In this document: one piece after another, positions 3,109 to 31,206 of the stretch | How the letters are laid out: each line of letters starts with the position of its first letter | How positions within the stretch are numbered: the stretch's first letter is position 1 | Translations under genes and position numbers: made by a program | Origin: Shigella phage Sf20 | Sequence record: MF327006 | Reading direction: 5' to 3' (one strand) | DNA: 64,000 bases | The notes under the pieces: generated by a model | Databases searched by the model: none | Seen by the model: only the letters and a program-made list of their open reading frames with translations | Told to the model about the DNA's origin: nothing

Positions 3109-3507
3109 TTAACTTTCCAGAATATCGCGAGCTTCGTTACGATCCTTGATGATTTTCAAGACAAATTCCAGTTTTTCTTTGTTCAGCGTTCCATTTTCCA
3201 TTGCTTCTTTGACGGTAAACACTCCGCCACCTTGCCCGTATACAGTGACAGTGATTTCACCTAACATCGTGGTATGAAAACCGCCAATTTTCGGTGATTC
3301 GAAAGAAACAATTACCTCGCGAACAGTATTACCGTCGTTGATTTCTGAGAGGGTAATGTCGTTTTTGTAGGCGGTTGCTTTAACCATACGGATCAGCATA
3401 GTCTGATCTGGGGAGATGGTCATTTTGTCCATTGCATGTTGCAATGCAGCGTAACCGAAAACTTTAACGAAGTCCAGAACGTCTTTGCGAGTTTGAAATT
3501 TAATCAT
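3109..3507 (-). CDS. hypothetical protein
   Basis: ORF track 132 aa; SD AAGGAG; preceded by promoter+stem-loop cassette. Confidence 0.5.
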   Translation of the reverse strand: MIKFQTRKDVLDFVKVFGYAALQHAMDKMTISPDQTMLIRMVKATAYKNDITLSEINDGNTVREVIVSFESPKIGGFHTTMLGEITVTVYGQGGGVFTVKEAMENGTLNKEKLEFVLKIIKDRNEARDILES

Positions 3508-3540
3508 CTTGATACTCCTTAGTTGTTTTGGTATGGGAGT

Positions 3541-3569
3541 ATCTTACTACTCCCGTGATATGCTGTCAA
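3541..3569 (-). promoter_or_regulatory. sigma70-type early promoter with stem-loop (PeSL-like)
   Basis: Minus sense TTGACA-N17-TAAGAT; -10 lies in hairpin GGGAGTA...TACTCCC. Confidence 0.55.
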
Positions 3570-3577
3570 CTGCTTTT

Positions 3578-3727
3578 TTATGCAACCGCAAACATCAACA
3601 TTTGAACATTCTTGGCTGTCTGGCTTTCAAAGTTCTGACATTCTTTGATAATGTCCTCTACTTTCTCGCCGGAGATCTCCGCGTAAGTTTCGATTGCCAT
3701 TTTCAGTACCGCGTCAAAGTTGTTCAT
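3578..3727 (-). CDS. small hypothetical protein (~49 aa, below ORF-track cutoff)
   Basis: Hand-translated MNNFDAVLKMAIETYAEISGEKVEDIIKECQNFESQTAKNVQMLMFAVA; SD AAGGAG; flanked by promoter cassettes. Confidence 0.35.
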   Translation of the reverse strand: MNNFDAVLKMAIETYAEISGEKVEDIIKECQNFESQTAKNVQMLMFAVA

Positions 3728-3765
3728 TTGATTCTCCTTAAAGTGTATTTCGTTTCGATGGGGGT

Positions 3766-3794
3766 ATATTACTACCCCCGTTTCATGCTGTCAA
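3766..3794 (-). promoter_or_regulatory. sigma70-type early promoter with stem-loop (PeSL-like)
   Basis: Minus sense TTGACA-N17-TAATAT; hairpin GGGGGTAGTAATATACCCC. Confidence 0.55.
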
Positions 3795-4013
3795 CTACTT
3801 TTTAATGACAAGTTCGAATTTTGCTACCTTGCGTCCTCGTTTATTGAAAGCAACCCACGGACGGTTTTCAATGTAGAACAATTCTTCACCAATAATGAAT
3901 ACTGGCTGATTGTAAAGGCGACCCATCAGGTCACGCTGGCGAATGGTAGTAGATTCGTATACTTCGCCTACTACAAAGTGCTTGCTGATAGAGTCGGTGC
4001 AAGTAAATTTCAT
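3795..4013 (-). CDS. hypothetical protein
   Basis: ORF track 72 aa; SD AAGGAG; own promoter cassette. Confidence 0.45.
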   Translation of the reverse strand: MKFTCTDSISKHFVVGEVYESTTIRQRDLMGRLYNQPVFIIGEELFYIENRPWVAFNKRGRKVAKFELVIKK

Positions 4014-4046
4014 TTTGATTCTCCTTTGTTTCGTTTCGATGGGGGT

Positions 4047-4075
4047 ATATTACTACCCCCGTTATTCAGTGTCAA
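4047..4075 (-). promoter_or_regulatory. sigma70-type early promoter with stem-loop (PeSL-like)
   Basis: Minus sense TTGACA-N17-TAATAT; near-identical copy of the 3766-3794 element. Confidence 0.55.
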
Positions 4076-4082
4076 CTACTTT

Positions 4083-4301
4083 TTACTTGTTGTATTCATT
4101 CCACCATTGGGTTAGCTTATCAATTATTTTTGTGTTTCTATCCAACTTCTCCCACCGTTTTCTAGGGTTTATCAACCGGAATAGGTAAGGTGTACTTGTT
4201 AAGTGAACTCGGTCAATGTAGTGATTGATGTACTGCTTTTCGATTCTAAGTTTCATCTTTTTACGATGAAAATATGCAATGACTTGTTCTTCTGTTTCCA
4301 T
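4083..4301 (-). CDS. hypothetical protein
   Basis: ORF track 72 aa; own promoter. Confidence 0.45.
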   Translation of the reverse strand: METEEQVIAYFHRKKMKLRIEKQYINHYIDRVHLTSTPYLFRLINPRKRWEKLDRNTKIIDKLTQWWNEYNK

Positions 4302-11086: not shown

Positions 11087-11416
11087 TCAAATCAGTTTGA
11101 AATAGTTTTCGTTTACATTTTCTTCTGTGATTGCTGTCTTAAATTCTTGACCGTTATCCGGTGTGATGAAATAACGGTCAGAATAATCACGAAAACGTTT
11201 TAAGTGAGATACCCCAACATTAACACCATTTTCCCAAAAACGAAAGGTAATCATTTTTGGTTCATATCGATAGTCGCTGGTTAACACAGTACCATCACCG
11301 CGACGGGCTTCATAAACCGTAATACATTCACGATTAGCGGCTTTAAGACATTCTTCAATAGTGCCGCACGAGATAATACTTAATTTTTCATCTACGATTT
11401 GTTCTACAGTCCACAT
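11087..11416 (-). CDS. hypothetical protein
   Basis: ORF trimmed to ATG at 11414-11416 with SD GAGAGGA. Confidence 0.45.
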   Translation of the reverse strand: MWTVEQIVDEKLSIISCGTIEECLKAANRECITVYEARRGDGTVLTSDYRYEPKMITFRFWENGVNVGVSHLKRFRDYSDRYFITPDNGQEFKTAITEENVNENYFKLI

Positions 11417-11447
11417 AATATAATCCTCTCTTTGTTTCGATATGTGC

Positions 11448-11475
11448 ATTATACACTATTGCGTTACGCTGTCAA
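11448..11475 (-). promoter_or_regulatory. sigma70-type early promoter
   Basis: Minus sense TTGACA-N16-TATAAT. Confidence 0.55.
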
Positions 11476-12273
11476 CTCTTTTTCAAAAGATTTTACGATA
11501 TACATTAAATTTCTAATTTCGGACGGTGGGATTGTCTCTGTCCACCCGTCCGGCATAACTTTTTGCGATACGTGGCGTGTTTTATTACTAAGTTTTTGTC
11601 GAACAATACCCTCTAATTTTAGGGGTATGTTTCCATCTTTAGTTGTTAACGTATGGAATATAAAGTGACGAACGGAAGACACGCTGGATTGCTGTTTCAT
11701 CCTTTCCTCGGCTTTTTTGTTAGTGATTCCGAACTTATACCCGACAATACAACCCCAATTATCAACCAGTTTTTGTATATAAAAGGTTCCTGGTTTTCTT
11801 TTATCATAACCTCCTTTTTGAGTGGGACATTTCGGACACTGCATATCATCTAAAGATGCGACATATTTGCCATGAACGCAGCAATCCATACTTAGATTCT
11901 TTTCTCTTGCATTAATATACCCATTAATAAATCCATTGGATTTTACTTTTTCATTATGAGAACAAAATTCATCAATTCGTATATTTGCTGATATAACATT
12001 TTTTCTTCTCATTCGTTCCATCCAACATTCTTGACAACCACCTCCCCCATTTTTAAGTATATCGATAGTGGTTAATTTTTGCTTGTGGTTTGGATTTAAT
12101 CCACAAGCAATTTTAATTTTAGATCGTACACCAGACCACTCATAGAATCCCAAATATATCATATCTCCGCTTTTTATTTTTGGCGAATTTAATGCTTCAT
12201 TTTCAATCTCAATTGGAGATTTTGAATTATAGTAATGGATATATTCTATATCTTTAGCAAATCTGGTGTTCAT
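11464..12273 (-). CDS. Cys-rich protein with possible C-terminal GIY-YIG-like (T5orf172-like) fold
   Basis: ORF trimmed to ATG 12271-12273 with SD GGAGGA; CQEC, CCVHG, CPKCP clusters; C-terminal FYIQKL...VGYKFGIT...ERMKQ. Confidence 0.45.
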   Translation of the reverse strand: MNTRFAKDIEYIHYYNSKSPIEIENEALNSPKIKSGDMIYLGFYEWSGVRSKIKIACGLNPNHKQKLTTIDILKNGGGGCQECWMERMRRKNVISANIRIDEFCSHNEKVKSNGFINGYINAREKNLSMDCCVHGKYVASLDDMQCPKCPTQKGGYDKRKPGTFYIQKLVDNWGCIVGYKFGITNKKAEERMKQQSSVSSVRHFIFHTLTTKDGNIPLKLEGIVRQKLSNKTRHVSQKVMPDGWTETIPPSEIRNLMYIVKSFEKELTA

Positions 12274-12300
12274 TTTGTCCTCCGTTGTTTCTATGCTTGC

Positions 12301-12328
12301 ATTATACATTATCTCGGATCAGTGTCAA
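12301..12328 (-). promoter_or_regulatory. sigma70-type early promoter
   Basis: Minus sense TTGACA-N16-TATAAT. Confidence 0.55.
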
Positions 12329-14110: not shown

Positions 14111-14380
14111 TTAAATATCGAGAGTGTTGGTCGGTTCGTCGATCACTCCCTTCCTGAGCGTTCTATTTACTATACATTCTTGTGTGATCTTGTCAATAAT
14201 GGACACCGGAATATACTTCTGATAGTGACCATATTCTATAGAGTTTTCCTCTACAAACTGAGTTGTCGCTTCAAGATAAGTCAATCCCTCTTCAACAACC
14301 AGTTTTTCGATTGCAAGACCGTTTGCTGTTTTATTCGCGGCTTTTACCGCATGTTCATTAAGCATTGAACACCCGATCAT
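14111..14380 (-). CDS. 33: late transcription co-activator
   Basis: IEKLVVEEGLTYLEATTQFVEENSI...NTLDI resembles T4 gp33; start uncertain (14380 or 14365). Confidence 0.65.
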   Translation of the reverse strand: MIGCSMLNEHAVKAANKTANGLAIEKLVVEEGLTYLEATTQFVEENSIEYGHYQKYIPVSIIDKITQECIVNRTLRKGVIDEPTNTLDI

Positions 14381-14633
14381 AGAGTTCTACCGCTTCATCG
14401 CGTTCTGCTTCGAAGGTTTCGCGCTGTTGCTGGTGATACAGTTTAAACAGAATGCCCCACATTTTACCATCTACGCCTAATTCTTCTTTAGCACGCTGTT
14501 TGATCTCTTTGATCTTATCGCCATATGCTTCTTGAATGGTTTTCTGATCGCTGGCTTCTTTAATCAGTTGTGCCAGGGTGTTTCCGTGCACTGCTTCGTC
14601 AAATACTACTTTTTCTTTTTTCTGTTCAGTCAT
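14358..14633 (-). CDS. dsbA: putative dsDNA-binding protein DsbA
   Basis: 91 aa; positional match between 33 and rnh; SD AGAGGG. Confidence 0.5.
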   Translation of the reverse strand: MTEQKKEKVVFDEAVHGNTLAQLIKEASDQKTIQEAYGDKIKEIKQRAKEELGVDGKMWGILFKLYHQQQRETFEAERDEAVELYDRVFNA

Positions 14634-14637
14634 AATA

Positions 14638-15237
14638 TTAACCCTCTTTAGTCATTAATTGAAAACCACGTTCAGCTTTTGATATTTCGCTAGGACTTAA
14701 ATCGTCACCAACATATCCTAGCATCATTTCTCGGATAATGTCAAGTGCTTTTTCATCACCTGATTTTAACTCGAACTCAAGTTCATAATGAGCAGTGTCG
14801 CCCAATCCTTCGCCTACTTTGCCATAATAGAAAGTGTCTTTGCACATTTCCACTATACCACAACCCATATCTAGAGTCAATGACTTGCGATATGTCATTA
14901 CTTGCATTATTGCAGTGATATAGTCGGAGTTTACCCCTAGACAATCAATAAAATGGACGAACTCATCCCAATTTGAAAATGTCATTTCCTCGCGGTTGAA
15001 TAGTCCAGATTCATTATCACCCATTTTGACCATGATCTCTGATTTTCTACAGTCAAGTCGTGCATAAATTCCTTTTTGACGTAGCGCATGATCTTCGGTA
15101 TCATAATAAAATTCGTGTTTTAATATGTTATCTCGGTCTAATAGATTGTACCCGTCATACATTGCCACCCACAAATCACAGATTGTTTCTACACCATCCT
15201 GTGAATGGGCATAGTATTTTAATTCAAGTTCTTTCAT
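14638..15237 (-). CDS. CYTH-domain protein (triphosphate tunnel metalloenzyme; CyaB/YgiF-like)
   Basis: N-terminal ELELKY (ExExK), EFYYDTEDHALRQKGIYARL, YELEFELKSGD, SKAERGFQLMT; ATG at 15235-15237. Confidence 0.6.
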   Translation of the reverse strand: MKELELKYYAHSQDGVETICDLWVAMYDGYNLLDRDNILKHEFYYDTEDHALRQKGIYARLDCRKSEIMVKMGDNESGLFNREEMTFSNWDEFVHFIDCLGVNSDYITAIMQVMTYRKSLTLDMGCGIVEMCKDTFYYGKVGEGLGDTAHYELEFELKSGDEKALDIIREMMLGYVGDDLSPSEISKAERGFQLMTKEG

Positions 15238-15247
15238 ATGTCAACCC

Positions 15248-16195
15248 TTAGAACTCACCAATTTTCTGCAACATTTTAACTAACGCATTTGTTACAAAAT
15301 AGTTATAAATTTTACCGCGTGGTGCTGGTTTAGATTTCTCCCATGCTAACAAAATTTCATATTCGATGTTATCAGGAATAAATTCAAAATCAATAAGTTC
15401 GCGGTTTTCGTCAAAGCGTCGTGCTTCTTCCTCTGTCATCAAAGACTTTGGATCTTCGGCATCGAAAATTTGCTCTAACCATTTGGTTGCAATTGGTTTA
15501 GCTCTTTCTCCTTCCAGTCGTGAGATAATGAAATCACTACGGCACTTGATCGAAGCCACACCGTCTTTTGCGTCACCCTTAACACATTTTACCATAAGGT
15601 CTTTGTAAGGGCTACCATATTTGCATTTCTTCCATGCTTTCTGTACTGGTGCCCACTGTTTCACATTTTTGTATTTGTGTAACTGTGTGTAGTCACCATC
15701 GCCGGAGTTGATTAGCACCTGGCGACCTTCTACAGAAAACTTTTTAGTTAACACAGCGATTATATCATCCGCTTCAACTTTGTCAACCTTAATAACGTGA
15801 TAAGGCATGTTCTCTTTAAACTCTTCGGTGATCTTATTGATCGCAGCAAAGATCATCTCCCAATCACGCGGATCTGCGTCTCGTTTTTCCTTACGGTTGC
15901 GTTTATAGTAAGGTGCGATATCACGTCGCCAGTAACCTTTGCTTGAATCAAAGGCAAGTACCGTAATTGGGTATTGCTCTTTGAATTTTGTCATATTATA
16001 ACGCATGGTGTCAAGGATAAGATGACGAATCATGCCTTCATTAATAGGATCTTCCGGTTTAAAGGTATGCGAGATAGTAGCAATCATAAGCTGCGACATA
16101 TCAATCAAATGCACACCTTCCGGCAGTTTATCTTCTGGATCATCAAAAAAATCATTAAGTGTAGCGGTAGTTTTTGTAAACGGGTTATACGTCAT
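15248..16195 (-). CDS. rnh: RNase H / 5'-3' exonuclease (FEN-1 family)
   Basis: 315 aa; acidic clusters VEADDIIAVL, NSGDGDYTQL; SD GGAGAG. Confidence 0.9.
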   Translation of the reverse strand: MTYNPFTKTTATLNDFFDDPEDKLPEGVHLIDMSQLMIATISHTFKPEDPINEGMIRHLILDTMRYNMTKFKEQYPITVLAFDSSKGYWRRDIAPYYKRNRKEKRDADPRDWEMIFAAINKITEEFKENMPYHVIKVDKVEADDIIAVLTKKFSVEGRQVLINSGDGDYTQLHKYKNVKQWAPVQKAWKKCKYGSPYKDLMVKCVKGDAKDGVASIKCRSDFIISRLEGERAKPIATKWLEQIFDAEDPKSLMTEEEARRFDENRELIDFEFIPDNIEYEILLAWEKSKPAPRGKIYNYFVTNALVKMLQKIGEF

Positions 16196-16197
16196 AA

Positions 16198-16383
16198 TTA
16201 AGTTCTCTCCACTCTCACAACAACATATTCGCCAAACGAGTTAGATACTTCACGATCATACCCGTATTTCTCCATAACTCGCAGAATTGCATTGTTTAAT
16301 TCGGCACGGAAATAATTATAATCCTTATCAGGGATTCTGTCAACTACCCATTTTGCACCTTCTGACAAATCAACTTTAACCAT
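16198..16383 (-). CDS. hypothetical protein
   Basis: ORF track 61 aa; coupled to rnh. Confidence 0.4.
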   Translation of the reverse strand: MVKVDLSEGAKWVVDRIPDKDYNYFRAELNNAILRVMEKYGYDREVSNSFGEYVVVRVERT

Positions 16384-16421
16384 AATATATCATCCTCTTT
16401 TGTTTCTATCAAGCCTCATTT

Positions 16422-16429
16422 TATAAATA
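16422..16429 (+). promoter_or_regulatory. T4-type late promoter (TATAAATA) for gene 34
   Basis: Exact TATAAATA ~28 nt upstream of the gene 34 ATG. Confidence 0.6.
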
Positions 16430-16457
16430 TGAACATACTATAAAAGGAGACCCAATA

Positions 16458-19400
16458 ATGGCAGATTTTTCTCAACATTTCAAGGCCACATTTGGCTTTG
16501 ACGCTGGTAATGAAAAGGTCGTCAATGTAGCATTGGCTGATAAGAATGTCAACACCGATGCGGTCAACGTTGAATTTTTCAATTACCATAATGGTATTAC
16601 TCAGTATGACACAACTCGCGGTTATGATCAATACGGAACTACAATCTATCAAAACCGTCCGTATTATGCAAAAGAAGATATCACAAAGCCAGCAGGTGAT
16701 TTTGACCCGACTAAATGGCAAGCACTGCGCACGGACCCACGTTGGGATTATATTGCAGCAACTTCCGGTGATACTCCTTTAAAGTCTGGTGATTATATCG
16801 CAGCAGATGGTCAATTTGCAAACTTGACTTTCTCTATGCCAACTAAACCAGCAGAGGGAGACACTATAACAGTAAAAGATATCGGTGGCAAGTGTGGTGT
16901 TAACGAATTATCGTTCTTGAGTTCAGGACATGAGTTTTACCATAACGGTAATGTGTATAACCGAAAATGGTATTGCACTACCCCGTATGCAATGAACTAT
17001 TTCATCTTTGTTCGTAATCGTTGGCATGTTTATCAGACGGGAACAGAGCCGCGCGGTGTGTACGCACAGCCAGCGATTGATGCTATTCAAATGCAGAATG
17101 GTGATCAGGTATTTCGTCGTAGTTCGTTGGGTAATATTACCTTAGTGCTTCCTAAGTTTGCCAACAATGGCGACATGATCCAGACTACAGACCTTGACGG
17201 ATTAACCGCAACCAACCACGTTACGGTTAAAGTTCATGAGCACGCAGAAGAACAATCAATTGGCACGTCCGGTCTAAAAGAGATTATCGGTAAGCGTAGC
17301 GGTCATGGTGTATTCATCTTTGACAAGACGGAAAACTTATGGCGTTTGTGGGATGGTGATCAGTCTGTTCGTCTTAAACCGATCATCGATGACACTCGCT
17401 TGCAACCTAATAGCTATGTTGCTGTATTTGGTGATCGTGATGTTACTCTGACGCTGCCGACCAATGTCGAGCCGGGTGATCGTATTCAAGTTTCTATGCA
17501 GTATATGCACGGAAACCAGAATTGCCGTATTATCACCGCCACAGAGGATACAAAAATCCTTATGCCGAAAAACATGGTTCAGTTTCCGAAGCGTAGCGAG
17601 TACCCATTCAACGGGACCGACACATGGAAGGAAGTGTCTGAATTGTCGTTCAATGCGGCTAGTGATTATGTACCTTATCTGGAGTTCTCTTATTCAGAAG
17701 GTGATGATGGTAAGAAATACTGGTTGGTGGCACATGCTCACCCGATTGTAGAACGAGTAGATCCGACTCGTAAAGATCGTGTTGGTGTAATTGCACTGGC
17801 TACCCAGGATGAAACAAACAAAAACCATGAAGAGAATCCTAGCGACGAAGTTGCGGTAACACCAAAAATGCTGGCTAATAAAACCGCCAACGAAACTCGA
17901 CGCGGTATTGCTCGCATTGCGACTCAAGCGGAAACGCATCAAGATACTGGTTCCAACTTCCTGGATGATGTTATCGTTACGCCTAAAAAGTTAAATGACT
18001 GTGTTGCTACCGAAGCCCGTCGTGGCGTGATGGAAATTGCAACCCAGCACGAAACCAATGAAGGTTTAGACGATACCCGCGCTATTACTCCTAAGAAATT
18101 AGAAGAACGTCGCGCTTCCGAAGATCTCGCTGGTATTGCTGAAATTGTTCAGGCTGGCGGTAGTGCTGCCGCTCGACGTGGCGAAGCTGGTACAGGGATC
18201 TATAACATCAACGACCATGTTAAAATTGTTACGCCACAAAACATCAACGAAGTCAAGGCGACCGAAACTTCCCGTGGTGTTGGCTATCTGGCAACTGACG
18301 CGGAAGTGCAAGGGGCTACAGAATCAACCCCGCAAGATGCTTTACTAATCACGACTCGCACGCTAACGAAACGTACTGCTACCGAATCGCGCACTGGTAT
18401 CGCTGAAATTGCAACTCAGGAAGAAACAAACTTAGGTCAAAGTGATAGCCATATCATCACGCCTAAAAAGCTGCATACTCGCCGCGCAACGGAAACTTTA
18501 CATGGTTTAGCAGAAATTGCAACTCAACCGGAATTTGACGCAGGTCTTGACGATGCTCGCATTTCTACCCCATTGAAGATTAAAACCTTCTTTGAGAATG
18601 CACAGCGTTTGAAAGTAGATCCGACTCAGGGGCTTAACCTTACTGGTGATTTGTGGCAAGGTATCATGATCAGCGGTCTGGATGCAACCGAAGACACAAA
18701 AGGTGTCGCTAAAGTTGCTACTACTCAGCTTACGGATGCTGGTCAAGATGATACTACAATCATCACGCCTAAAAAGCTGCAAGGCAAAAAGGCAACCGAA
18801 GGTAAAGAAGGTATTATCCGAGTTGGTACTCAAGCCGAAACCGTGGCTGGTGCACTGGCTAATGTAGCAATTTCTCCGAAGAACTTCAAATATGTTGTTC
18901 AGACAGAGGATACATGGAAAGCAACCGAATCGCGTCGTGGCTTCTTGAAAGTTGCTACTCAGGAAAACTGTTTTGTTGGTGATAATCTGCAAGGTTCTAC
19001 TCAAGAACTAGGAAACTACCAGCATGACGGAATTGCTGTTACCCCGAAAGGATTAAACTACGCACTTGCTAATTTCTTACCTAAGATGGCAACCGCTCAG
19101 AATAGTTTGAAATTGGGTAACGTAGAGGCCGCTAAATGGGCGCGTAGAGACATTGACCAGACCATAGAGAGCAATTACACGTTTAATAAAAAAGTTAACG
19201 TGAAGGGCGATTTAGAGTGCTTAAAATCAGGTTCCTTTGAAACTCTGTCTGTGACTAAGAACTCGACCGATGTTCCGAGTAATGGTCATCTGGTGTTGGG
19301 TGAGCGTGGAGTTGACGGTCACACCGGAATTACTCTGCATGGCACAACCGCATCGGAAGGCATGAAAAACTCTTGGTCGATTATCGTTGGTGGTACGGGA

Positions 19401-20530
19401 ACAGCGCAAGTTGTTGATAGTGATGCTATCGCTTTCGGTAAAATCAATGATGGTGGAGTCGTTGAGCATTACGCCTTTGCTATGAAACACAATGGCGACG
19501 CGACAGCATATAGAGACTTTATTGCAGGTCGTAACCTGTATGCGAAACAAGGCGGTTTATACATTGTTGACCAGTCTAATCCGGCAATGACTCGTTCCCC
19601 AGATGGTATGCTGAATATCGGTCACGGTGGAAGTGTTAACATCAAGGCAGGTCATCAAACGTTAACTACAGAGATCGCCGGACAGAAATATCAGATCGTA
19701 CACGCAGGAAACGCTGACGAAGTTCTTAACCGTCAGTTTGTTAAGAATGCTGGCGATACAATGGTCGGTAAGCTGACTATGGATAATGCGCCTATTGTTT
19801 CTGTTAAGCATGAAGCTAGCGCGGCAACCGCTCCGGCAATCGGTAACATCGGTTTCTGGAATATGCGAGTTACTACCCAGAACATCAAAGAAACTTATCC
19901 AGAGAAGAAAAACGGTACTCTGATGCAATGGGGTACTGACGCGGACGGGCTTACCCAGCTTTGGTCCCCTGATGGTACTCATAAACATTATATCCGTTCC
20001 GGTACTGGCGGGGACAGAAATATCAGATCGTACACGCAGGAAACGCTGACGAAGTTCTTAACCGTCAGTTTGTTAAGAATGCTGGCGATACAATGGTCGG
20101 TAAGCTGACTATGGATAATGCGCCTATTGTTTCTGTTAAGCATGAAGCTAGCGCGGCAACCGCTCCGGCAATCGGTAACATCGGTTTCTGGAATATGCGA
20201 GTTACTACCCAGAACATCAAAGAAACTTATCCAGAGAAGAAAAACGGTACTCTGATGCAATGGGGTACTGACGCGGACGGGCTTACCCAGCTTTGGTCCC
20301 CTGATGGTACTCATAAACATTATATCCGTTCCGGTACTGGCGGTCAATGGACCGCATGGGGTGAAATTTACACCAAACAGAACAAACCTACCGCTCAGGA
20401 AATCGGGGCAGTAGTTGCAGAAGGTGGTTTAATGAACTCTATGACGGTTCGTGATTGGATCAAAGTTGGTAATGTTAAAATCATCGCCAATAATCTGACT
20501 CGTACCGTAGACTTTATCTGGGAAGACTAA
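16458..20530 (+). pseudogene. 34: long tail fiber proximal subunit, reading frame broken by a 332-bp tandem duplication
   Basis: N-terminus matches T4 gp34; frame 0 stops at 20108 just after the duplication junction; native C-terminus continues in frame +2 to 20530; removing one copy gives a 1246-aa ORF. Confidence 0.85.
19680..20343 (+). repeat. perfect direct tandem duplication, 2 x 332 bp
   Basis: 19680-20011 identical to 20012-20343 by eye; 332 is not a multiple of 3. Confidence 0.85.
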
Positions 20531-20563
20531 TTAAAGGGGGCGAAAGCCCCCTATGGGGTTATT

Positions 20564-21703
20564 ATGACACAAGATATAGAATTACGCAACACTGGAATTA
20601 GGTTTGCGCATTTCGACGAAGACTCTGCGACATTTACCAGCATTTCAGAAAATAACTCTGTGATGTATAAGCTGGAAGTGCGCGGATCTAATGCGGATTC
20701 TACCAAACCAGCAAGGATTAGATTTAATGGAGTGGAGATCGTTGGCGCTGGCTATGAAAATGGCCTAAATTTGAAAGTTCTTACTCCAACTGGACAACTA
20801 CACGAAGAAAAGGTATTCTATGGTCGCGGTGCTGTTTTGGCAATGCGTGATTATCTTTCTTTGCTGAAAGGTGATTATATCATTGCGATGGCAACTCATG
20901 GAGAATTGTTTGCAGATCCGATAAGTGATGTTGTATTTTCTAAGATGGGATCTGTATCATTCCCGAATCACATTTTGTTACAGCAAATGCCTCGTGTATC
21001 ATATGCAGCAATTTATTCTACTAAAATGGGTAAAATTGTGTGCGAAGGGATGCAAGCGACCCACGGGGAAGGACAAGATTCATCTATACAAATTGAGAAG
21101 GTTTATGATACTATAGATGATCTTGCTATAACAGGAACACCACAACGATTTTTAGATTATCCGGTTGAGTATGTTAGCGAAGATGCCGAACATTTCGAGC
21201 TAATACAATGGCCTCATGATGAGATCAGCGCACCACTTGAATATTTTAACATAAAGGCAGGTGACAAACTATCATTATCATTTGAATTGTTCCGTGATAG
21301 TGCCGCAGCCGCAGCCAACGTAACAGCGCGTTTCTATCACAACTATTTTACTGATGGACAATACAAAACTGGCGTTCGATACAATGCCAGCAAAAAAGAT
21401 CAATGGGAAAAGTTTGAAGCCGTCTATACCGTGCCGGAAGGTGTCGATAGTGTAGTAACTGGTTGTATCAGATATCCAACCAACTCAAATGAAGGTATTG
21501 TTAAAATTAGAAACATACTAATAACGCCGATCAGTGGAGTCGTCAAAACTACTGGTCCTACTTCATTTGGTGTTAATGGTGTTAGAACAACTCATATTCA
21601 GGATAACGGTGATTTTACTAACCCTGTAATGAGTCTTCTTAAGCTGCCTAGAGACAATAAACATATCACATCCAACAACTTTAAAGAGTTCGATGTTGAT
21701 TAA
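20564..21703 (+). CDS. 35: long tail fiber hinge connector
   Basis: 379 aa, size and position as T4 gp35. Confidence 0.75.
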   Translation: MTQDIELRNTGIRFAHFDEDSATFTSISENNSVMYKLEVRGSNADSTKPARIRFNGVEIVGAGYENGLNLKVLTPTGQLHEEKVFYGRGAVLAMRDYLSLLKGDYIIAMATHGELFADPISDVVFSKMGSVSFPNHILLQQMPRVSYAAIYSTKMGKIVCEGMQATHGEGQDSSIQIEKVYDTIDDLAITGTPQRFLDYPVEYVSEDAEHFELIQWPHDEISAPLEYFNIKAGDKLSLSFELFRDSAAAAANVTARFYHNYFTDGQYKTGVRYNASKKDQWEKFEAVYTVPEGVDSVVTGCIRYPTNSNEGIVKIRNILITPISGVVKTTGPTSFGVNGVRTTHIQDNGDFTNPVMSLLKLPRDNKHITSNNFKEFDVD

Positions 21704-21713
21704 CATTTTTAAC

Positions 21714-21745
21714 AAGCCGATCCATGTGGTCGGCTTTATTTTTAT
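21714..21745 (+). terminator. intrinsic terminator downstream of gene 35
   Basis: Hairpin AAGCCGAUCC-AUGU-GGUCGGCUU followed by UAUUUUUAU. Confidence 0.55.
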
Positions 21746-21864
21746 ACAGTTGGTTAAATTGTAACCAAAACGAAGAAAGATCTTTAGAATATAGAAAAGT
21801 TTGTTTCGGTTAAAAATTAGTCAGTGCCGTAGGCACGTCGCGAAGCGATATTTTGTTAACATTC

Positions 21865-21872
21865 TATAAATA
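21865..21872 (+). promoter_or_regulatory. T4-type late promoter (TATAAATA) for gene 36
   Basis: Exact TATAAATA 34 nt upstream of the gene 36 ATG. Confidence 0.6.
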
Positions 21873-21905
21873 CTCGGAACTATAACTAATTTTTGAGGTT
21901 ACTTT

Positions 21906-23396
21906 ATGGCAGATTTGAAACATGGATCTACTGTAGGCGGATCTCCCATTTGGACGCAAGGAAACTTGACGATCCAGCCAGCGGGGGATCAGCTTTTCTA
22001 CAAAGGTCATAAAATCTATACCGCTTTTGATAGACCTTCGGCTACCGATTTTGATGCTGTTAGTGCATCCGAAGGTGGCACATTTCAAAAGCAAGTTCAT
22101 TTCGAGGAAGGTTTAAGCGTAGGTAGCGCATCGGCTGGAGAAACCAAAAAGAATGGTATCTTTAAAGGTCAGAGCGACGCTGCTAATTTTGACGGCGTAA
22201 GCTGGGGTTTGCATTCATGGAAGTCAATCGGCTTTGTTAATGCCCGTGATGGCGTTATCATGGCGTATATTGACACCACAACGGGCGAATTTAAGTCTAA
22301 AGGGACTATCGAAGGGACAACCATTAAAGACACAGGTCAACGCGTCTATAGCCCTGTTAATAAACCAACGAATAATGATTTAGATTTGGTGTCTCGTCGC
22401 GGTGATACCCTAACAGGAACATATAATTTAAACACTGTCACTGTTAAACTATCGGTTGATTCGAAATTAATTGCAAGGGAACGTGATTTAATTAATTTTG
22501 ATGCGACTAAGATCTATTATGGTAACGTTCTTGATACGTTGGTCTTCCGAAGTAAAGATGAGCCTACCATTTTTGTTAATGGCAGAGAAGGTCGTTTTTA
22601 TCACACCAACAATAAACCAACTAAAGCCGATGTTGGGCTAGGCAATGTCACCAATGATGCACAGGTTAAACGTGCTGGTGATATTATGGAAGGTAACTTG
22701 CAAGCGCCTAGAATGTTGGCGACAAACGATCCTGCTGGTCCTAATGAATTGGTTCGTTTGAGCTACTTTGAGAGAAAATCAATGGTAGCAAATCCAACCA
22801 TCATTGGAAACGTTGATTGGAACACTCTTATTAATCGCGGTATCTATCGTGTGGAAAATGCTGGGTCGGGTACTAATAAACCGTCTGATAGCTATTATAA
22901 TGGCGTTTTGATGGTATATCGCCCAGAAGATGCGGTCGGTACTCGTCGAATTGTTCAGGTGTATTATCCTGAATCTATTGACCATCCGATGTGCTGGCGT
23001 TCGTGTTCTAATGAATCCTGGACTGCATGGAACTATGTAGATCACCGTAAATTAGCCGATATTCGCTATGTTAACGTAACTGGCGATACCATGACAGGAC
23101 CGTTAACTGTTCCGGCTGCAAATGGCGTTAGAACAGCTAAAACTAACTATAACGGGGATAACTGTTATGCGGCGTTAAGCGGTGCTGATGGCACTGCGAT
23201 GATTCACCGCATTAGTGATATTAAAGGGACCGAAAAGCTGGGGATCACCCACGACTCAAAGGTCGTGTTTTTCCGTTCTAGAAACAATACTCAAACCGTG
23301 GACCGCTATCAGCTTTATCATGAAGGTAATAAACCTACTCCGGCTGATGTTGGAGCGGTTCCACTTAATGCGGTGATTGATTTTGGTACTTTCTAA
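21906..23396 (+). CDS. 36: long tail fiber distal connector (extended form)
   Basis: N-terminus MADLKHGSTVGGSPIWTQGN matches T4 gp36; 496 aa versus ~221 in T4. Confidence 0.8.
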   Translation: MADLKHGSTVGGSPIWTQGNLTIQPAGDQLFYKGHKIYTAFDRPSATDFDAVSASEGGTFQKQVHFEEGLSVGSASAGETKKNGIFKGQSDAANFDGVSWGLHSWKSIGFVNARDGVIMAYIDTTTGEFKSKGTIEGTTIKDTGQRVYSPVNKPTNNDLDLVSRRGDTLTGTYNLNTVTVKLSVDSKLIARERDLINFDATKIYYGNVLDTLVFRSKDEPTIFVNGREGRFYHTNNKPTKADVGLGNVTNDAQVKRAGDIMEGNLQAPRMLATNDPAGPNELVRLSYFERKSMVANPTIIGNVDWNTLINRGIYRVENAGSGTNKPSDSYYNGVLMVYRPEDAVGTRRIVQVYYPESIDHPMCWRSCSNESWTAWNYVDHRKLADIRYVNVTGDTMTGPLTVPAANGVRTAKTNYNGDNCYAALSGADGTAMIHRISDIKGTEKLGITHDSKVVFFRSRNNTQTVDRYQLYHEGNKPTPADVGAVPLNAVIDFGTF

Positions 23397-23401
23397 TTTT
23401 A

Positions 23402-23426
23402 GCGGGGATTATCTCCCCGCTTTTCT
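23402..23426 (+). terminator. intrinsic terminator downstream of gene 36
   Basis: Hairpin GCGGGGA-UUAUC-UCCCCGC followed by UUUUCU. Confidence 0.5.
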
Positions 23427-23466
23427 AAATAATGTTATTCTAATAACCGTTTAAGGATTTTATAAA

Positions 23467-26406
23467 ATGGCAGATTTAAGCAGAATCCAATTTAAACGTA
23501 CTAGCACTAAAGGCCGTCGACCTGATGCTGGTACGATGAATCCGGGGGAATTGGCAATCAACCTTGCGGATCAATATCTTCTTACTAAAAATGATTCCGG
23601 TGCTATTATCAATTTAAGTTGTCCTCCGGTTTATGACCGCGATGTTACAATGGCAGGTAAGGTTAAAGGTAATAATTATATCTTAAGTAAAACCGCCAAC
23701 TATCTGGAAGATCAGACAGCGAGAGACCTTAACTACTTTGGTGCTTTCCGTACCAATGGTCTTGACGGTTTTCTCGAACTCACGCTAAACGTTCCTCATT
23801 CTTCTGGTGTTCAGCATGGTCGAGGATTTACTTTCCAGTATGGACACACAGGAAACCGTGTAGAAACTTATGGTTATAATAAAGAAGGACAAAAAGCATT
23901 TAGCTATAAAATGTATCATGAAGGTGATAAACCTACCCCATCGGAATTGAACGTTTATAGCAAACAAGAAGTTGACCGTATGTTTGTTAAAACCGTTAAA
24001 CTTGCTACAGTTCCTGTTGATATCGTTGACGGTTATTTTAAATTAGCAACTGCAATGATTCCGCAAAACGGTCGTAGTGTATTTTTCCGTATTCATGGTG
24101 GTAACGGATATAACGTTACCGCATACGATCAAGTTGATATTGTAGAAATTGTTATTCGCAGTGGAAATAATCGTCCTAAAGGTGTTAACGTTATTGCATA
24201 CCGACGAAATACAAACAAATCATTTGATGTTTTGGCTGTTAATACTTCTGGTGATAACTATGATATCTACGTGAAATATCAGCGTTACACTGATAACGTT
24301 ATTGTTGAATTTGGTAAAAGTGTTGATGTTGATCTGGTAGTCCATGACGTTCCCGACTTTGTTGTTGATCGTCCTGCTGGCGATAATGTTATTGGCGGTC
24401 GCGCGGTAACTCTTTTCAACACAGAAAATAAACGTGGTGTGTTGAGTTTTGACGATAACACACAAAATAGTTATGATATTGTTCACTTGAGTAATGATAA
24501 AGGTACTGGTCGGAAATATATTCGTAAATTCCGCAGTAACTATAATGAAATGATCTGGCATGAGACGGTTCAAGGTTCTACCTATCGACTCGCCACGGGT
24601 AGTACCGATGCTCAGGAGATTCTAACCGTTGAATCTGTTAGCTCAATTGCTGGAACTCATAAAGGTAATATTATTTCTGGACGTATGCTGTTAAATGGCG
24701 GTAGTAATGTTATTACCTTGCGGCGTCCTGCTGGTCAATCCAACCATATTGCGTTTCAAGATAATCGTACTGGAGATATTACCCGTCAAGGATGGATCGG
24801 TTATGCCAATGCTGATACTAACATTTTTGAATGGTATAGTGATGTAGGTGGCAGTTCTATTCGTCAACATATTGACGGACAGATCGAACTTGCAACCGGT
24901 AACACAAAACGCGTTTATACTAACGCTCAATTCATCTCAATGAATAGCGACGCCTACCGCATGCTCTACGGTAATTATGGTGCATTCTGGCGTAATGACG
25001 GCGTTAAAGTTTATCTTCTTTCTACTGCCGAAAATGATAAATTGGGCGGGTGGAATGCCTATCGTCCATTCATTTATGATTTAACTTCCGGTAACGTTCA
25101 ATTAGGCGGTGATGGTAACGAAGAAGCATTAACGTTAGAACGTGCTTCTCGTGCCGCTCGATTTAGTAATGACGTTTACATTAAGAAAGGGCTTTTGACT
25201 TTCGACGCTGGTCGTGCTGGATCTCGCGATTATATTCGATTTAATCATTGGGGTGATAGCAATAATGCTCGTGATAACGTTTTGTACATAGAAGATAGTC
25301 AAGGCCGACATTTTAGTACAGAACGTGCGATGGGTACTGGTGCTCTTAAAGCATACTTCTTAGGCGATCTTGAAGTCGGTGGTAAGTTTACTTGGGGTAA
25401 AAATACAGCTACATCTAGCTTTAATATCCGTGCATGGGGTGCTGATGCTCGTAAACAGGTATTAGAATGTGCTGATGAAAGCGGTTGGCATTGGTATACC
25501 CAACGACCGGGCGGTCCTGGTACTGATGCAATTGAATTTTCTATTAACGGTACGGTTAAGCCTAAAGCAATTCATACTGGCGGCAATATCACTATCAACG
25601 GTGCTGATATTGAGTTTAAACGCGCTGGCAATAAGCATTTATGGTTTAGAGATCCAAACGGATTAGAATTGGGTTTGATTTATTGTGATGATGCTGGTGT
25701 TATTCGTGTCCGTGGTGAGAAGTCGACCGAAGTGTGGAAATTCTCGGCAAAACAGATTCATTTAGAAACGGGTACTGCTGGTAACGGTGTTGGTTTAATC
25801 CGTGGTGCAGTTGGTGGTGGTGCGTGGACTCAATGGAGAGACCGTGGTACTGGCTTACAGGTTGACTGCCAACAATCAGAAAACTCAGCACACAACATAT
25901 GGCGAGCGACTCATCAAGGTAAGTACCATCTTGCAGCAATGGGTGTTCATGCATCTGGTGGTAGTGTTGCTAATACCGTTGTTCGCTTACATGTTCATGA
26001 CTCAAACTATGATTTCACTGCTGTTGGTGACTTCACCGCAGGTCGTAACGGTTCGTTTAACGATGTGTACATTCGTTCTGATGCTCGCCTTAAAATCAAC
26101 AAGGAAGAGTATAAAGAGAATGCCACCGATAAAGTTAATCGCTTAACTGTATACACCTATGACAAGGTTAAATCTTTAACCGACCGTACTGTCATTGCTC
26201 ATGAAGTTGGCATTATCGCACAGGATCTTGAGAAAGAATTGCCGGAAGCAGTAACAACCTCGAAGATCGGAGACGGTGATACACCAGAAGAGATCTTAAC
26301 AATTTCTAACTCTGCTGTCAACGCTCTTTTAATTAAGGCGTTTCAGGAAATGAGCGAAGAATTGAAAGCCGTTAAAGCTGAACTAGCGGAACTTAAAAAG
26401 AATTAA
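23467..26406 (+). CDS. 37: long tail fiber distal subunit with C-terminal intramolecular chaperone (S74-like) domain
   Basis: N-terminus MADLSRIQFKRTS...GELAINLAD matches gp37; C-terminal SDARLK motif (Ser codon 26077-26079) plus coiled-coil tail. Confidence 0.8.
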   Translation: MADLSRIQFKRTSTKGRRPDAGTMNPGELAINLADQYLLTKNDSGAIINLSCPPVYDRDVTMAGKVKGNNYILSKTANYLEDQTARDLNYFGAFRTNGLDGFLELTLNVPHSSGVQHGRGFTFQYGHTGNRVETYGYNKEGQKAFSYKMYHEGDKPTPSELNVYSKQEVDRMFVKTVKLATVPVDIVDGYFKLATAMIPQNGRSVFFRIHGGNGYNVTAYDQVDIVEIVIRSGNNRPKGVNVIAYRRNTNKSFDVLAVNTSGDNYDIYVKYQRYTDNVIVEFGKSVDVDLVVHDVPDFVVDRPAGDNVIGGRAVTLFNTENKRGVLSFDDNTQNSYDIVHLSNDKGTGRKYIRKFRSNYNEMIWHETVQGSTYRLATGSTDAQEILTVESVSSIAGTHKGNIISGRMLLNGGSNVITLRRPAGQSNHIAFQDNRTGDITRQGWIGYANADTNIFEWYSDVGGSSIRQHIDGQIELATGNTKRVYTNAQFISMNSDAYRMLYGNYGAFWRNDGVKVYLLSTAENDKLGGWNAYRPFIYDLTSGNVQLGGDGNEEALTLERASRAARFSNDVYIKKGLLTFDAGRAGSRDYIRFNHWGDSNNARDNVLYIEDSQGRHFSTERAMGTGALKAYFLGDLEVGGKFTWGKNTATSSFNIRAWGADARKQVLECADESGWHWYTQRPGGPGTDAIEFSINGTVKPKAIHTGGNITINGADIEFKRAGNKHLWFRDPNGLELGLIYCDDAGVIRVRGEKSTEVWKFSAKQIHLETGTAGNGVGLIRGAVGGGAWTQWRDRGTGLQVDCQQSENSAHNIWRATHQGKYHLAAMGVHASGGSVANTVVRLHVHDSNYDFTAVGDFTAGRNGSFNDVYIRSDARLKINKEEYKENATDKVNRLTVYTYDKVKSLTDRTVIAHEVGIIAQDLEKELPEAVTTSKIGDGDTPEEILTISNSAVNALLIKAFQEMSEELKAVKAELAELKKN

Positions 26407-29674: not shown

Positions 29675-30433
29675 TTACTTGCAAACGTATTGATCTACAT
29701 CAATTGCGCCACCGAATGTAGGATGACGTTTTTCGAATCGAATAGTTCCGTCGTTTGGTTCGAAAACGGAGTATTCATATAGATCTTTCTTGCCAACATT
29801 CTTATAAAACCCGCCTTTAGTCATAACGGTTTCTTGTACGTTTGCTTTGTGTACGTTGTATTCATCAATGTATACAAAATCAACCATCTTCCCATTTTTA
29901 ATGGTTACTTTAAGATCTCCTGGTTGGTTTCCATATTTTGCATACAGTGGGGCTTCTTTAATTTTGGTGGAAATTCCATCTTTCATACTCCACTCATAAC
30001 GAACGGTGCATTGATAGGTAAAAGTTTCGACCTTCGGTTCTTCTACCACTTTTGCTTCCTGTTTCGGTTGTTCTTCTTCAACCTTCGCAGAAGTCTCTGA
30101 ATAGCTTTCTGACGCGGTTTCTTCTTTAGGTAATACATTCATCAAGTTTTGGATTTGAGCGTTATATACAGCCTCCAGTGGCTGAATCTGCCCGATATTG
30201 ATCATTGTATCACGAACAGTTTTATTCCAGTTGCGTTGCTCTTGTTTAAGAGACGGATCAATCTTAACAGCCTTAACATACACCTCATGAAGTTTAGAGT
30301 CCAGTGCGGAGATAGACTCATTAGCACAAATAAACTTCTCTGATTTGGTAGTAGCTTTAGCGCAATCAAAGGACGCAGCGTTAGCACCGAAAGCAGTAGC
30401 AGAAAGAACGATAGCAGCGATAATGTTTTTCAT
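29675..30433 (-). CDS. secreted protein with DUF1311/LprI-like (lysozyme-inhibitor-like) N-terminal domain
   Basis: Signal peptide MKNIIAAIVLSATAFGANA; CAKATTKSEKFICANESISALDSKLHEVY...KQEQRNWNKTVRD; C-terminal Cys-flanked domain; own promoter. Confidence 0.55.
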   Translation of the reverse strand: MKNIIAAIVLSATAFGANAASFDCAKATTKSEKFICANESISALDSKLHEVYVKAVKIDPSLKQEQRNWNKTVRDTMINIGQIQPLEAVYNAQIQNLMNVLPKEETASESYSETSAKVEEEQPKQEAKVVEEPKVETFTYQCTVRYEWSMKDGISTKIKEAPLYAKYGNQPGDLKVTIKNGKMVDFVYIDEYNVHKANVQETVMTKGGFYKNVGKKDLYEYSVFEPNDGTIRFEKRHPTFGGAIDVDQYVCK

Positions 30434-30468
30434 AATATATTCCTCAGTGTTTTGTCTTGATGGGAGTA

Positions 30469-30497
30469 TCTTACTACTCCCTTAATCCGGTGTCAAC
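30469..30497 (-). promoter_or_regulatory. sigma70-type early promoter with stem-loop (PeSL-like)
   Basis: Minus sense TTGACA-N17-TAAGAT; hairpin GGGAGTAGTAAGATACTCCC. Confidence 0.55.
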
Positions 30498-30507
30498 TAC
30501 TTTTAAA

Positions 30508-30768
30508 TTATTTTCGCCATTCACCGGAAACAATAAAGTTTGTAAAGTGAACGTGGTCCGTGATAACGTCATTAAGTACCATATGCGGATATGCTTTAGT
30601 GTAATCACGTTTACGATCAGTCATCCAACCAACGAAAGTCGGTGCAAAGTACGGCACACCGTCAGATGATGCCATATTAAACCATTTATCAGCCATAAAT
30701 GCAGCCGCCCTAAGATTTTTAATTGAAGTAGTGCGACTAATTTCAAAAACTTTATCGGTAAAATTCAT
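30508..30768 (-). CDS. hypothetical protein
   Basis: ORF track 86 aa. Confidence 0.45.
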   Translation of the reverse strand: MNFTDKVFEISRTTSIKNLRAAAFMADKWFNMASSDGVPYFAPTFVGWMTDRKRDYTKAYPHMVLNDVITDHVHFTNFIVSGEWRK

Positions 30769-30980
30769 TTTAAGCCCCCCGCTCGTGCATTAATACGCAT
30801 TTTCTGCATAGCCATGATCTGGTTTACTGCTTCTTCTTTACGTTCTTGCGTGATAACGTGACCAGATTCCGTAAACTCTCCCGCAACTTCTTCTACGATC
30901 TCGCGAACTTGAGAACGTCCAAAGATGCGGTTTCCTTCGTAGCTCATAAATTCAGTCACTACTTGCTCGATAGATTTCAT
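30765..30980 (-). CDS. hypothetical protein
   Basis: ORF trimmed to ATG 30978-30980 with SD AAGGAG. Confidence 0.45.
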   Translation of the reverse strand: MKSIEQVVTEFMSYEGNRIFGRSQVREIVEEVAGEFTESGHVITQERKEEAVNQIMAMQKMRINARAGGLK

Positions 30981-31012
30981 GTGATTCTCCTTCTTTCGTT
31001 TGGTATGGGAGT

Positions 31013-31041
31013 ATAATACTACTCCCATTTCTTTACGTCAA
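31013..31041 (-). promoter_or_regulatory. sigma70-type early promoter with stem-loop (PeSL-like)
   Basis: Minus sense TTGACG-N17-TATTAT; hairpin GGGAGTAGTATTATACTCCC. Confidence 0.55.
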
Positions 31042-31044
31042 CAA

Positions 31045-31206
31045 CTATTTTAAATTATTTTCGACCTTCACCCATTCCGCGTATTCTTGCGCGGCTACTT
31101 TCGGATTTAGTCCGTCTTCGTACATTGCATCAAGTAATTCTTTGTCGGTGGGCTTATACCCTAGATAAGCCTCCACCTGATTTTTCCAAATTTTATACCA
31201 GTTCAT
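31045..31206 (-). CDS. small hypothetical protein
   Basis: ORF trimmed to ATG 31204-31206 (MNWYKIWKN...). Confidence 0.35.
   Translation of the reverse strand: MNWYKIWKNQVEAYLGYKPTDKELLDAMYEDGLNPKVAAQEYAEWVKVENNLK

What the first reader, a model, noticed from the sequence alone, without database searches (positions are those of the whole stretch)
16458..20530. Long tail fiber gene 34 broken by a perfect 332-bp tandem duplication
Positions 19680-20011 and 20012-20343 are identical by eye. Because 332 is not a multiple of 3, frame 0 stops at 20108 after 31 junk residues and the true C-terminus is stranded in frame +2. Removing one copy restores a 1246-aa ORF. This is either an assembly artefact, a real null allele, or a heteroplasmic duplication variant.
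Basis: seen in the sequence. Interest (0 to 1): 0.75.

Follow-up and report, generated by a model that had tools for sequence, protein, structure and literature searches.

The report
Tail-fibre gene duplication, likely assembly error
The public genome of Shigella phage Sf20 contains an exact 332-base back-to-back repeat that breaks its essential long-tail-fibre gene 34. All the comparative evidence points to a sequence-assembly mistake rather than real biology.

Summary
Window 19680-20011 and 20012-20343 are identical, and this is the only tandem repeat in the 64 kb. The repeat shifts gene 34 out of frame: 1185 genuine residues, 31 junk residues, then a stop at 20108. The true C-terminus is left in ORF 20093-20530. 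Deleting one copy gives a 1246-aa gp34.

The broken 1216-aa product is exactly AUV63935.1 of Shigella phage Sf20, so the repeat is in the deposited GenBank record.

No other sequence has it:
- All 58 Krischvirus (RB49-like) genomes in the phage collection have one copy.
- Three IMG/VR contigs that encode gp35 were fetched; two aligned across this region, both as a single copy.
- Eleven further genome or metagenome loci encode a 1246-aa gp34.
- Two independent Logan contigs match Sf20 base for base over window 14170-23122, and the one that crosses the repeat carries one copy.
- The junction sequence is absent from IMG/VR and JGI metagenome contigs.

The junction has 0 bp of microhomology, whereas real T4 amplifications have 2-10 bp. 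The lost segment is the conserved C-terminal cap, which in T4 joins the distal half-fibre. No other gene in the window is broken.

Best reading: an unmerged overlap or loop misassembly (about 0.7). A real minority variant is the main rival. Only reads or PCR can decide. Interest is low.

The parts
16458..20108 (+). Gene 34 as it stands in the record: a 1216-aa truncated long-tail-fibre proximal subunit (1185 genuine residues plus 31 out-of-frame residues plus TGA).
   Evidence: ORF list and translation. The sequence is exactly AUV63935.1, 'long tail fiber subunit, proximal [Shigella phage Sf20]'. The DNA is 98.7% identical to RB49 gene 34.
19680..20011 (+). Copy 1 of the 332-bp unit. It is read in the correct frame and encodes gp34 residues 1075-1185.
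   Evidence: The unit aligns roughly to T4 gp34 residues 1110-1229, which span the end of the triple beta-helix and most of the P5 domain. The ~1110 end is extrapolated, because the T4 alignment only begins at Sf20 residue 1149.
20012..20343 (+). Copy 2 of the 332-bp unit, 100% identical to copy 1. The incoming ribosome reads it out of frame.
   Evidence: It is absent from all 58 relatives and from the Logan contigs L001 and L018.
20001..20024 (+). The novel junction GGTACTGGCGG|GGACAGAAATATC, with 0 bp of microhomology.
   Evidence: Left and right extension are both 0. The junction is unique in the window. A 40-mer is absent from IMG/VR viral contigs and a 24-mer is absent from JGI metagenome contigs.
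20012..20108 (+). The out-of-frame tail: 31 junk codons and the premature TGA at 20106-20108.
20093..20530 (+). The stranded 3' end of gene 34: a 145-aa ORF equal to residues 1102-1246 of intact gp34. There is no recognisable Shine-Dalgarno sequence upstream of its ATG. It is not annotated in the record.
   Evidence: It matches phrog_972 positions 1077-1246. It aligns to T4 gp34 residues 1186-1288 at E = 1.7e-10. The upstream sequence was read. gp34 and gp35 have consecutive accessions, AUV63935 and AUV63936.
20564..21703 (+). Gene 35 (hinge, proximal connector), intact at 379 aa.
   Evidence: Exactly AUV63936.1. It has the same length as the RB49 homologue.
21906..26406 (+). Genes 36 (496 aa) and 37 (979 aa), the distal half-fibre genes, both intact.
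   Evidence: No gene other than 34 is broken relative to RB49.

Best explanation
The second 332-bp copy is an assembly or finishing artefact in the deposited Shigella phage Sf20 genome. The most likely causes are two overlapping sequence ends (contig ends, or the ends of a circularly permuted assembly) that were concatenated rather than merged, or an assembler that went twice round a spurious loop. The living phage carries a normal single-copy gene 34 encoding the 1246-aa proximal long-tail-fibre subunit.

Shown here: the repeat exists, it breaks the gene, it is unique to this record, and a base-for-base identical natural sequence lacks it. Inferred: that the cause lies in the computer rather than in the phage.
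For: - **Identical copies, arbitrary boundaries.** The copies are 100% identical and the boundaries share 0 bp of microhomology. That is what end-to-end concatenation of an overlap produces.
- **Contrast with real T4 events.** Documented tandem amplifications in T4 have junctions at short microhomologies, typically 6-10 bp and cited as 2-10 bp (PMC9391042).
- **Absent from all relatives.** All 58 Krischvirus genomes in the phage collection span 966-973 bp where the window spans 1301, which is one copy. Two IMG/VR contigs also align as a single copy. Eleven further genome or metagenome loci encode a 1246-aa gp34.
- **Truncated length is unique.** Among the 15 listed members of the 236-member 90%-identity cluster, 13 are 1246 aa. 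The other two are a partial 1244-aa entry and the 1216-aa Sf20 entry.
- **Near-isogenic comparators.** Logan contig L019 is 100% identical to window 14170-19792. L001 is 100% identical to the window with one copy removed, from 19396 to 23122. So the duplication is the only difference over about 9 kb. The exact restored 1246-aa protein exists in Logan contig L018.
- **The junction is found nowhere else.** It is absent from IMG/VR and JGI metagenome contigs.
- **The allele should be lethal.** The truncation removes the homologue of T4 gp34 residues ~1230-1289. [quoted passage not shown] T4 needs at least three long tail fibres to be infectious (PMC3004832). Yet Sf20 is a named phage isolate with a deposited genome, which implies it could be propagated.
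- **The rest of the window is clean.** No other gene is broken relative to RB49 among 144 ORF matches.
- **A recognised class of error.** The Phage Annotation Guide warns of duplicated regions and of contigs that extend beyond 100% of the genome (PMC8785237).
Against: - No reads are available. The Sf20 paper (PMC5874400) is not held, so the assembler and finishing steps are unknown.
- No Logan assembly carries Sf20's own gp37, so the raw reads appear not to be public.
- The window runs without a break across the point where RB49-convention records start, between rIIB and rIIA. So the Sf20 record was not rotated to that convention. That makes the specific route 'untrimmed circular ends followed by rotation' less obvious.
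- Illegitimate recombination without microhomology is not impossible in T4-type phages.
Confidence: 0.7

Rival explanations
1. The duplication is a real but minority (heteroplasmic) variant. A spontaneous tandem duplication arose in the sequenced lysate and was carried along by co-infection with wild-type genomes, which supply functional fibres. Its junction reads created a loop in the assembly graph, and the assembler traversed that loop.
For: T4-type phages generate tandem duplications readily. Headful packaging tolerates an extra 332 bp (established knowledge of T4 packaging). Identical copies fit a very recent event. The variant's absence from every other sequence is also expected under this reading.
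Against: The junction has 0 bp of microhomology, against the 2-10 bp typical of real T4 events. A null mutation in an essential gene has no selective route to high frequency. A 332-bp direct repeat would be collapsed quickly by the very active homologous recombination of T4-type phages (established knowledge, not tested here).
Confidence: 0.17
2. The duplication is a real, fixed null or hypomorphic allele. Sf20 as propagated carries it and infects Shigella without complete long tail fibres, for example through a compensating baseplate change of the kind known in T4 gene 9 fibre-independent mutants.
For: The sequence is what was deposited and annotated. Fibre-independent T4 mutants exist (recalled from the literature, not checked here).
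Against: Natural sequences identical at every other base carry one copy. Genes 35, 36 and 37 are intact. The C-terminus is conserved all the way to T4. The T4 requirement for fibres is stated. The repeat would revert rapidly by recombination under strong selection.
Confidence: 0.05
3. The broken gene is still expressed as a functional product. This could be by translational bypass or frameshifting over the second copy, or by re-initiation at ATG 20093 so that the 1216-aa and 145-aa fragments assemble together.
For: ATG 20093 lies 13 nt upstream of the premature TGA, so termination-reinitiation is conceivable. The two fragments overlap by 84 residues (1102-1185) and together contain every residue of gp34.
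Against: A bypass of 332 nt would be far beyond the 50-nt T4 gene 60 case (recalled from the literature). There is no Shine-Dalgarno sequence before ATG 20093. No relative has this arrangement, so nothing could have selected for it. T4 gp34 chains are extensively intertwined in the trimer, which makes assembly from split chains unlikely.
Confidence: 0.02

Closest known systems
Gene 34 of Escherichia phage RB49 and other Krischvirus genomes (NP_891819.1, 1246 aa)
   Same: The DNA is about 98-99% identical. The synteny is the same: rnh, a 61-aa ORF, then genes 34, 35, 36 and 37. The restored product has the same 1246-aa length.
   Different: The window has a second copy of 332 bp that none of the relatives carries, and it truncates the ORF to 1216 aa.
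T4 gp34, the proximal long-tail-fibre subunit (PDB 9x3r, 5nxf/5nxh, 4uxe)
   Same: Homology runs the full length at E = 1e-239. It includes the seven quasi-repeats and the C-terminal P5 and cap region, which aligns up to the second-to-last residue of both proteins.
   Different: The central part of the C-terminal half is divergent. The record's product lacks the homologue of T4 residues ~1230-1289.
Tandem segmental amplifications in T4 (rII duplications, Hp17, dmd-tifA)
   Same: All are head-to-tail direct duplications in a T4-type genome.
   Different: The T4 events are typically kilobases long and arise at 2-10 bp microhomologies. They are selected for a gene-dosage benefit and are confirmed by PCR or reads. 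Here the unit is 332 bp, the junction has 0 bp of microhomology, and the event frameshifts an essential gene.
Duplicated-region assembly errors described in the Phage Annotation Guide (PMC8785237)
   Same: A perfect duplicate in a circularly permuted phage genome, with contigs that extend beyond 100% of the genome, and a resulting frameshifted gene.
   Different: The duplicate lies inside the record rather than at its ends. The step that produced it cannot be identified from the sequence.

Membership tests
T4-type long-tail-fibre proximal subunit gp34 (phrog_972) | Full-length sequence homology to gp34 | tested here: met
   The restored protein matches phrog_972 positions 1-1246 of 1246 at E = 0. 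It matches T4 gp34 chain 9x3r_M at E = 1e-239.
T4-type long-tail-fibre proximal subunit gp34 (phrog_972) | Position in the conserved tail-fibre gene cluster (rnh ... 34-35-36-37) | tested here: met
   The gene order in the window equals that of RB49 and of 11 other genome or metagenome loci that encode a 1246-aa gp34.
T4-type long-tail-fibre proximal subunit gp34 (phrog_972) | Uninterrupted ORF through the conserved C-terminal cap that joins the distal half-fibre | tested here: not met
   As written, the ORF ends at 20108 after 31 junk residues and the cap is left in ORF 20093-20530. The feature is met only after one copy is deleted.
Assembly or finishing artefact (unmerged overlap, or a loop traversed twice) | Copies 100% identical with arbitrary boundaries and no microhomology | tested here: met
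   332/332 identical, with left and right extension both 0.
Assembly or finishing artefact (unmerged overlap, or a loop traversed twice) | Absent from all relatives, including otherwise identical sequences | tested here: met
   All 58 genomes in the phage collection have one copy. L001 and L019 are identical to the window apart from the extra copy. The junction is absent from two large contig collections.
Assembly or finishing artefact (unmerged overlap, or a loop traversed twice) | No reads span the junction, and read depth over the unit is half that of the flanks when mapped to the two-copy sequence | not testable with these tools
   Raw reads are not available. No Logan assembly carries Sf20's own gp37, and the paper is not held.
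Genuine microhomology-mediated tandem duplication of T4-type phages | Short (2-10 bp) homology retained once at the junction | tested here: not met
   The junction has 0 bp. The expectation comes from PMC9391042.
Genuine microhomology-mediated tandem duplication of T4-type phages | Compatible with phage viability, or selected for | tested here: not met
   The duplication frameshifts gene 34 and removes the cap that binds gp35/gp36. T4 requires long tail fibres for infectivity. The effect in Sf20 itself is inferred.
Programmed translational bypass or recoding (T4 gene 60 type) | A short conserved coding gap with matched take-off and landing codons, present in relatives | tested here: not met
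   The gap would be 332 nt, and no relative has it.

The most novel reading that the evidence does not exclude
The duplication is physically present at appreciable frequency in Sf20 stocks. On this reading it is a reversible, recombination-collapsible frameshift in gene 34 that creates a mixed population of fibre-competent and fibre-null genomes. Phenotypic mixing during co-infection would maintain the null genomes.
Probability: 0.1. Interest if true: 0.4.

Novelty: not a real feature. Interest (0 to 1): 0.12.

Why it matters
The main value is in data curation. GenBank and UniProt carry a truncated gp34 for Shigella phage Sf20 (AUV63935.1, A0A2K9VNJ5; genome accession given as MF327006 in PMC12533011). 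Its 31 C-terminal residues are junk, and 61 genuine C-terminal residues are missing from any annotated protein. Anyone who uses this record for tail-fibre phylogeny, host-range prediction or receptor-binding-protein engineering would be misled. The genome length is probably overstated by 332 bp.

If the duplication proved real, it would be a small but neat example of an unstable null duplication in an essential gene of a T4-type phage. It would not be a new mechanism.

Tried and rejected
- **Junction elsewhere.** I searched for the junction in other data and found no match. The 40-mer is absent from IMG/VR and the 24-mer is absent from JGI metagenome contigs.
- **Source record and reads.** The exact truncated protein and Sf20's own gp37 are not in the gene-position index. 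MF327006 is not in the phage collection. The Doore et al. 2018 paper could not be opened by DOI or by PMC id. The sequencing and assembly method therefore remains unknown.
- **P0001 look-up.** I reached the same contig through a neighbouring protein instead.
- **Translational bypass, frameshifting or split-protein rescue.** Rejected. The gap is 332 nt, there is no Shine-Dalgarno sequence before ATG 20093, and no relative shares the arrangement.
- **Recombination at the mobile PeSL promoter cassettes of RB49-type phages.** Rejected. The PeSL copies lie at 3.5-4.1 kb and 30.4-31.1 kb, not at the repeat boundaries.
- **Untrimmed circular ends followed by rotation to the rIIA start.** Not supported as such. 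The window runs continuously across the rIIB|rIIA point.
- **A generally poor assembly.** Rejected. No other gene is broken relative to RB49.
- **The Logan contig break at window 19792.** It lies inside the unit but not at a unit boundary, so it is not a signature of the duplication.

Full report
**Observation.** The repeat finder, Tandem Repeats Finder and a direct string comparison agree that window 19680-20011 and 20012-20343 are identical at 332 of 332 bases. The identity stops exactly at both outer boundaries: extension is 0 on the left and 0 on the right. It is the only tandem repeat reported in the 64 kb window. The junction 24-mer is unique in the window and never appears in shuffled sequence.

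The ORF that starts at 16458 ends at 20108 and encodes 1216 aa. The unit starts on a codon boundary, and 332 = 3 x 110 + 2. Residues 1-1185 are therefore genuine, the next 31 are out-of-frame junk, and a TGA at 20106-20108 ends the protein. ORF 20093-20530 (145 aa) carries the true C-terminus. Deleting either copy restores a 1246-aa ORF.

**What the gene is and where the window comes from.** The region is 98-99% identical to gene 34 of RB49 and 57 other Krischvirus genome records. The restored protein matches PHROG 972, 'tail fiber protein proximal subunit', over its whole length. It matches T4 gp34 at E = 1e-239. The surrounding order (rnh, a 61-aa ORF, then genes 34, 35, 36 and 37) is that of RB49.

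An exact-sequence look-up shows that the truncated 1216-aa product is AUV63935.1, 'long tail fiber subunit, proximal [Shigella phage Sf20]', on a 163,982-bp contig. The next two genes are AUV63936.1 and AUV63937.1. The window is therefore part of the deposited Sf20 genome; a later paper gives its accession as MF327006. The duplication is in the public record, and the depositors annotated the truncated ORF. The 145-aa remnant has no accession of its own.

**Is the duplication found anywhere else?** No.
- All 58 relatives in the phage collection cover the 1301-base query 19400-20700 with 966-973 bases, which is one copy.
- Three IMG/VR contigs that encode gp35 were fetched. Two of them aligned across this region, both as a single copy; the third gave no alignment.
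- Eleven further genome or metagenome loci were retrieved through neighbouring proteins, and each encodes a 1246-aa gp34.
- In the 236-member 90%-identity protein cluster, 13 of the 15 listed members are 1246 aa. The other two are a partial 1244-aa entry and the 1216-aa Sf20 entry.
- The junction sequence is absent from IMG/VR and from the JGI metagenome contigs.

The most telling evidence comes from Logan assemblies of three runs with neighbouring accession numbers. Contig L019 (SRR17241521) is 100% identical to window 14170-19792. Contig L001 (SRR17241499) is 100% identical to the window with one copy removed, from 19396 up to 23122. Contig L018 (SRR17241506) encodes exactly the restored 1246-aa protein. 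So sequences that match Sf20 at every base over about 9 kb exist in other samples, and the contig that crosses the repeat carries one copy. The extra 332 bp is the sole difference. The event is therefore either extremely recent or not biological.

**What the truncation would do.** The last ~100 residues of the restored protein align to the C-terminal region of T4 gp34, residues 1186-1288 of 1289, at E = 1.7e-10. The middle of the C-terminal half is too divergent to align. The C-terminus is therefore under strong constraint.

The junction maps to about T4 residue 1229. In the T4 crystal structure, residues 1146-1238 form the P5 domain, which the authors propose as the site where trimerisation starts. 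The remaining residues form the cap that most likely binds gp35/gp36 (PMC5537660). The Sf20 product as written lacks the end of P5 and the entire cap, and carries 31 unrelated residues instead.

In T4 the C-terminal end of gp34 joins the distal half-fibre, and a particle needs at least three long fibres to be infectious (PMC3004832). By inference, this allele should be null or nearly so. Yet Sf20 is a named phage isolate with a deposited genome, which implies it could be propagated. Nothing else in the window is damaged. A stop-to-stop ORF comparison with RB49 gave 144 matches, and the few length differences it flagged were antisense ORFs, window edges or upstream non-coding stretches, not broken genes.

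**Artefact or real?** Real tandem amplifications in T4 arise by recombination between short homologies, typically 6-10 bp and cited as 2-10 bp, and one copy of the homology remains at the junction (PMC9391042). Here there is none. A junction with no shared bases is the most likely outcome when two overlapping sequence ends are pasted together instead of merged.

The Phage Annotation Guide lists duplicated regions, contigs longer than the genome and frameshift assembly errors as recurrent faults in phage submissions (PMC8785237). A frameshifting duplication in an essential gene has no route to fixation in a plaque-purified stock. A 332-bp direct repeat would also be collapsed quickly by the very active recombination of T4-type phages. 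That last point is established knowledge and was not tested here.

I therefore put about 0.7 on an assembly or finishing artefact. I put about 0.17 on a genuine minority variant whose junction reads led the assembler round a loop. A fixed real allele, with or without some rescue, gets a few per cent.

One caveat applies. The window runs without a break across the rIIB|rIIA point where RB49-convention records begin. The simple story of 'circular contig ends left untrimmed, then rotated to the rIIA start' is therefore not demonstrated. The exact faulty step cannot be recovered from the sequence.

**Rejected functional readings.**
- A gene-60-like translational bypass would have to skip 332 nt, and no relative has the arrangement.
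- Re-initiation at ATG 20093 is conceivable, because it lies 13 nt upstream of the premature stop. But no Shine-Dalgarno sequence precedes it, and the intertwined trimer architecture seen in T4 gp34 makes assembly from split chains improbable.

**What could not be done.** The original paper (PMC5874400) is not held. The Sf20 record is not in the searchable collections. No public read set appears to exist. The decisive tests are read mapping or PCR across 19600-20420, and virion mass spectrometry for peptides beyond residue 1185.

**Verdict.** The feature is most likely an error in a public genome record rather than biology. Interest is low, apart from the need to correct the record.

Noticed in passing
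window 3501-4086 and 30428-31052: There are five copies of a 71-79-nt repeat in intergenic positions. Each contains a GGGAGTA...TACTCCC hairpin next to TGTCAAC (TTGACA on the gene strand). They look like the PeSL (promoter-early stem-loop) mobile regulatory cassettes described for RB49 and phi1 (PMC2839356 found).
   Followed up: partly
window 17886-18965: Seven diverged copies of a 45-nt unit lie inside gene 34, encoding the motif ATE..G.AEIATQ. They match the 'seven quasi-repeats' of T4 gp34 that are also shared with gp12.
   Followed up: partly
window 16384-16457; compare L005 9243-9806 and L007 9243-9806: Some relatives carry a 187-aa HNH_3/AP2 endonuclease gene between gene 34 and the 61-aa ORF. 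The window and most other relatives do not. This is a presence/absence polymorphism of a probable homing endonuclease right next to gene 34.
   Followed up: no
window 11087-12309 (minus strand): The slot between gene 32 and frd is hypervariable. The window has 281-aa and 120-aa ORFs with no Pfam hit. Relatives have CapR-domain ORFs of 162-541 aa, two 109-aa ORFs, or a 485-aa 'endonuclease' in RB49.
   Followed up: partly
window 23123-23210 versus L001: L001 is identical to the one-copy window up to 23122. It then shows 21 mismatches within 88 bp at the 3' end of gene 36. That is a sharp mosaic boundary and suggests recombination near the gene 36/37 junction.
   Followed up: no
proteins P0008 and P0025: Short contigs of a Bacillus atrophaeus assembly (MCG8398965.1, MCG8399039.1) encode Krischvirus gp34 and gp35 that fall in the same 90%-identity clusters. 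This is almost certainly coliphage contamination of that assembly.
   Followed up: no
PMC12533011, Table 2: The table lists Sf20 (MF327006) as 169,232 bp, the same figure as phage Brandy. The contig that carries AUV63935.1 is 163,982 bp. This is probably a copying error in that table.
   Followed up: no
L019 end, equal to window 19792: The 100%-identical Logan contig stops 113 bases into the repeat unit rather than at a unit boundary. The contig break is therefore unrelated to the duplication.
   Followed up: partly
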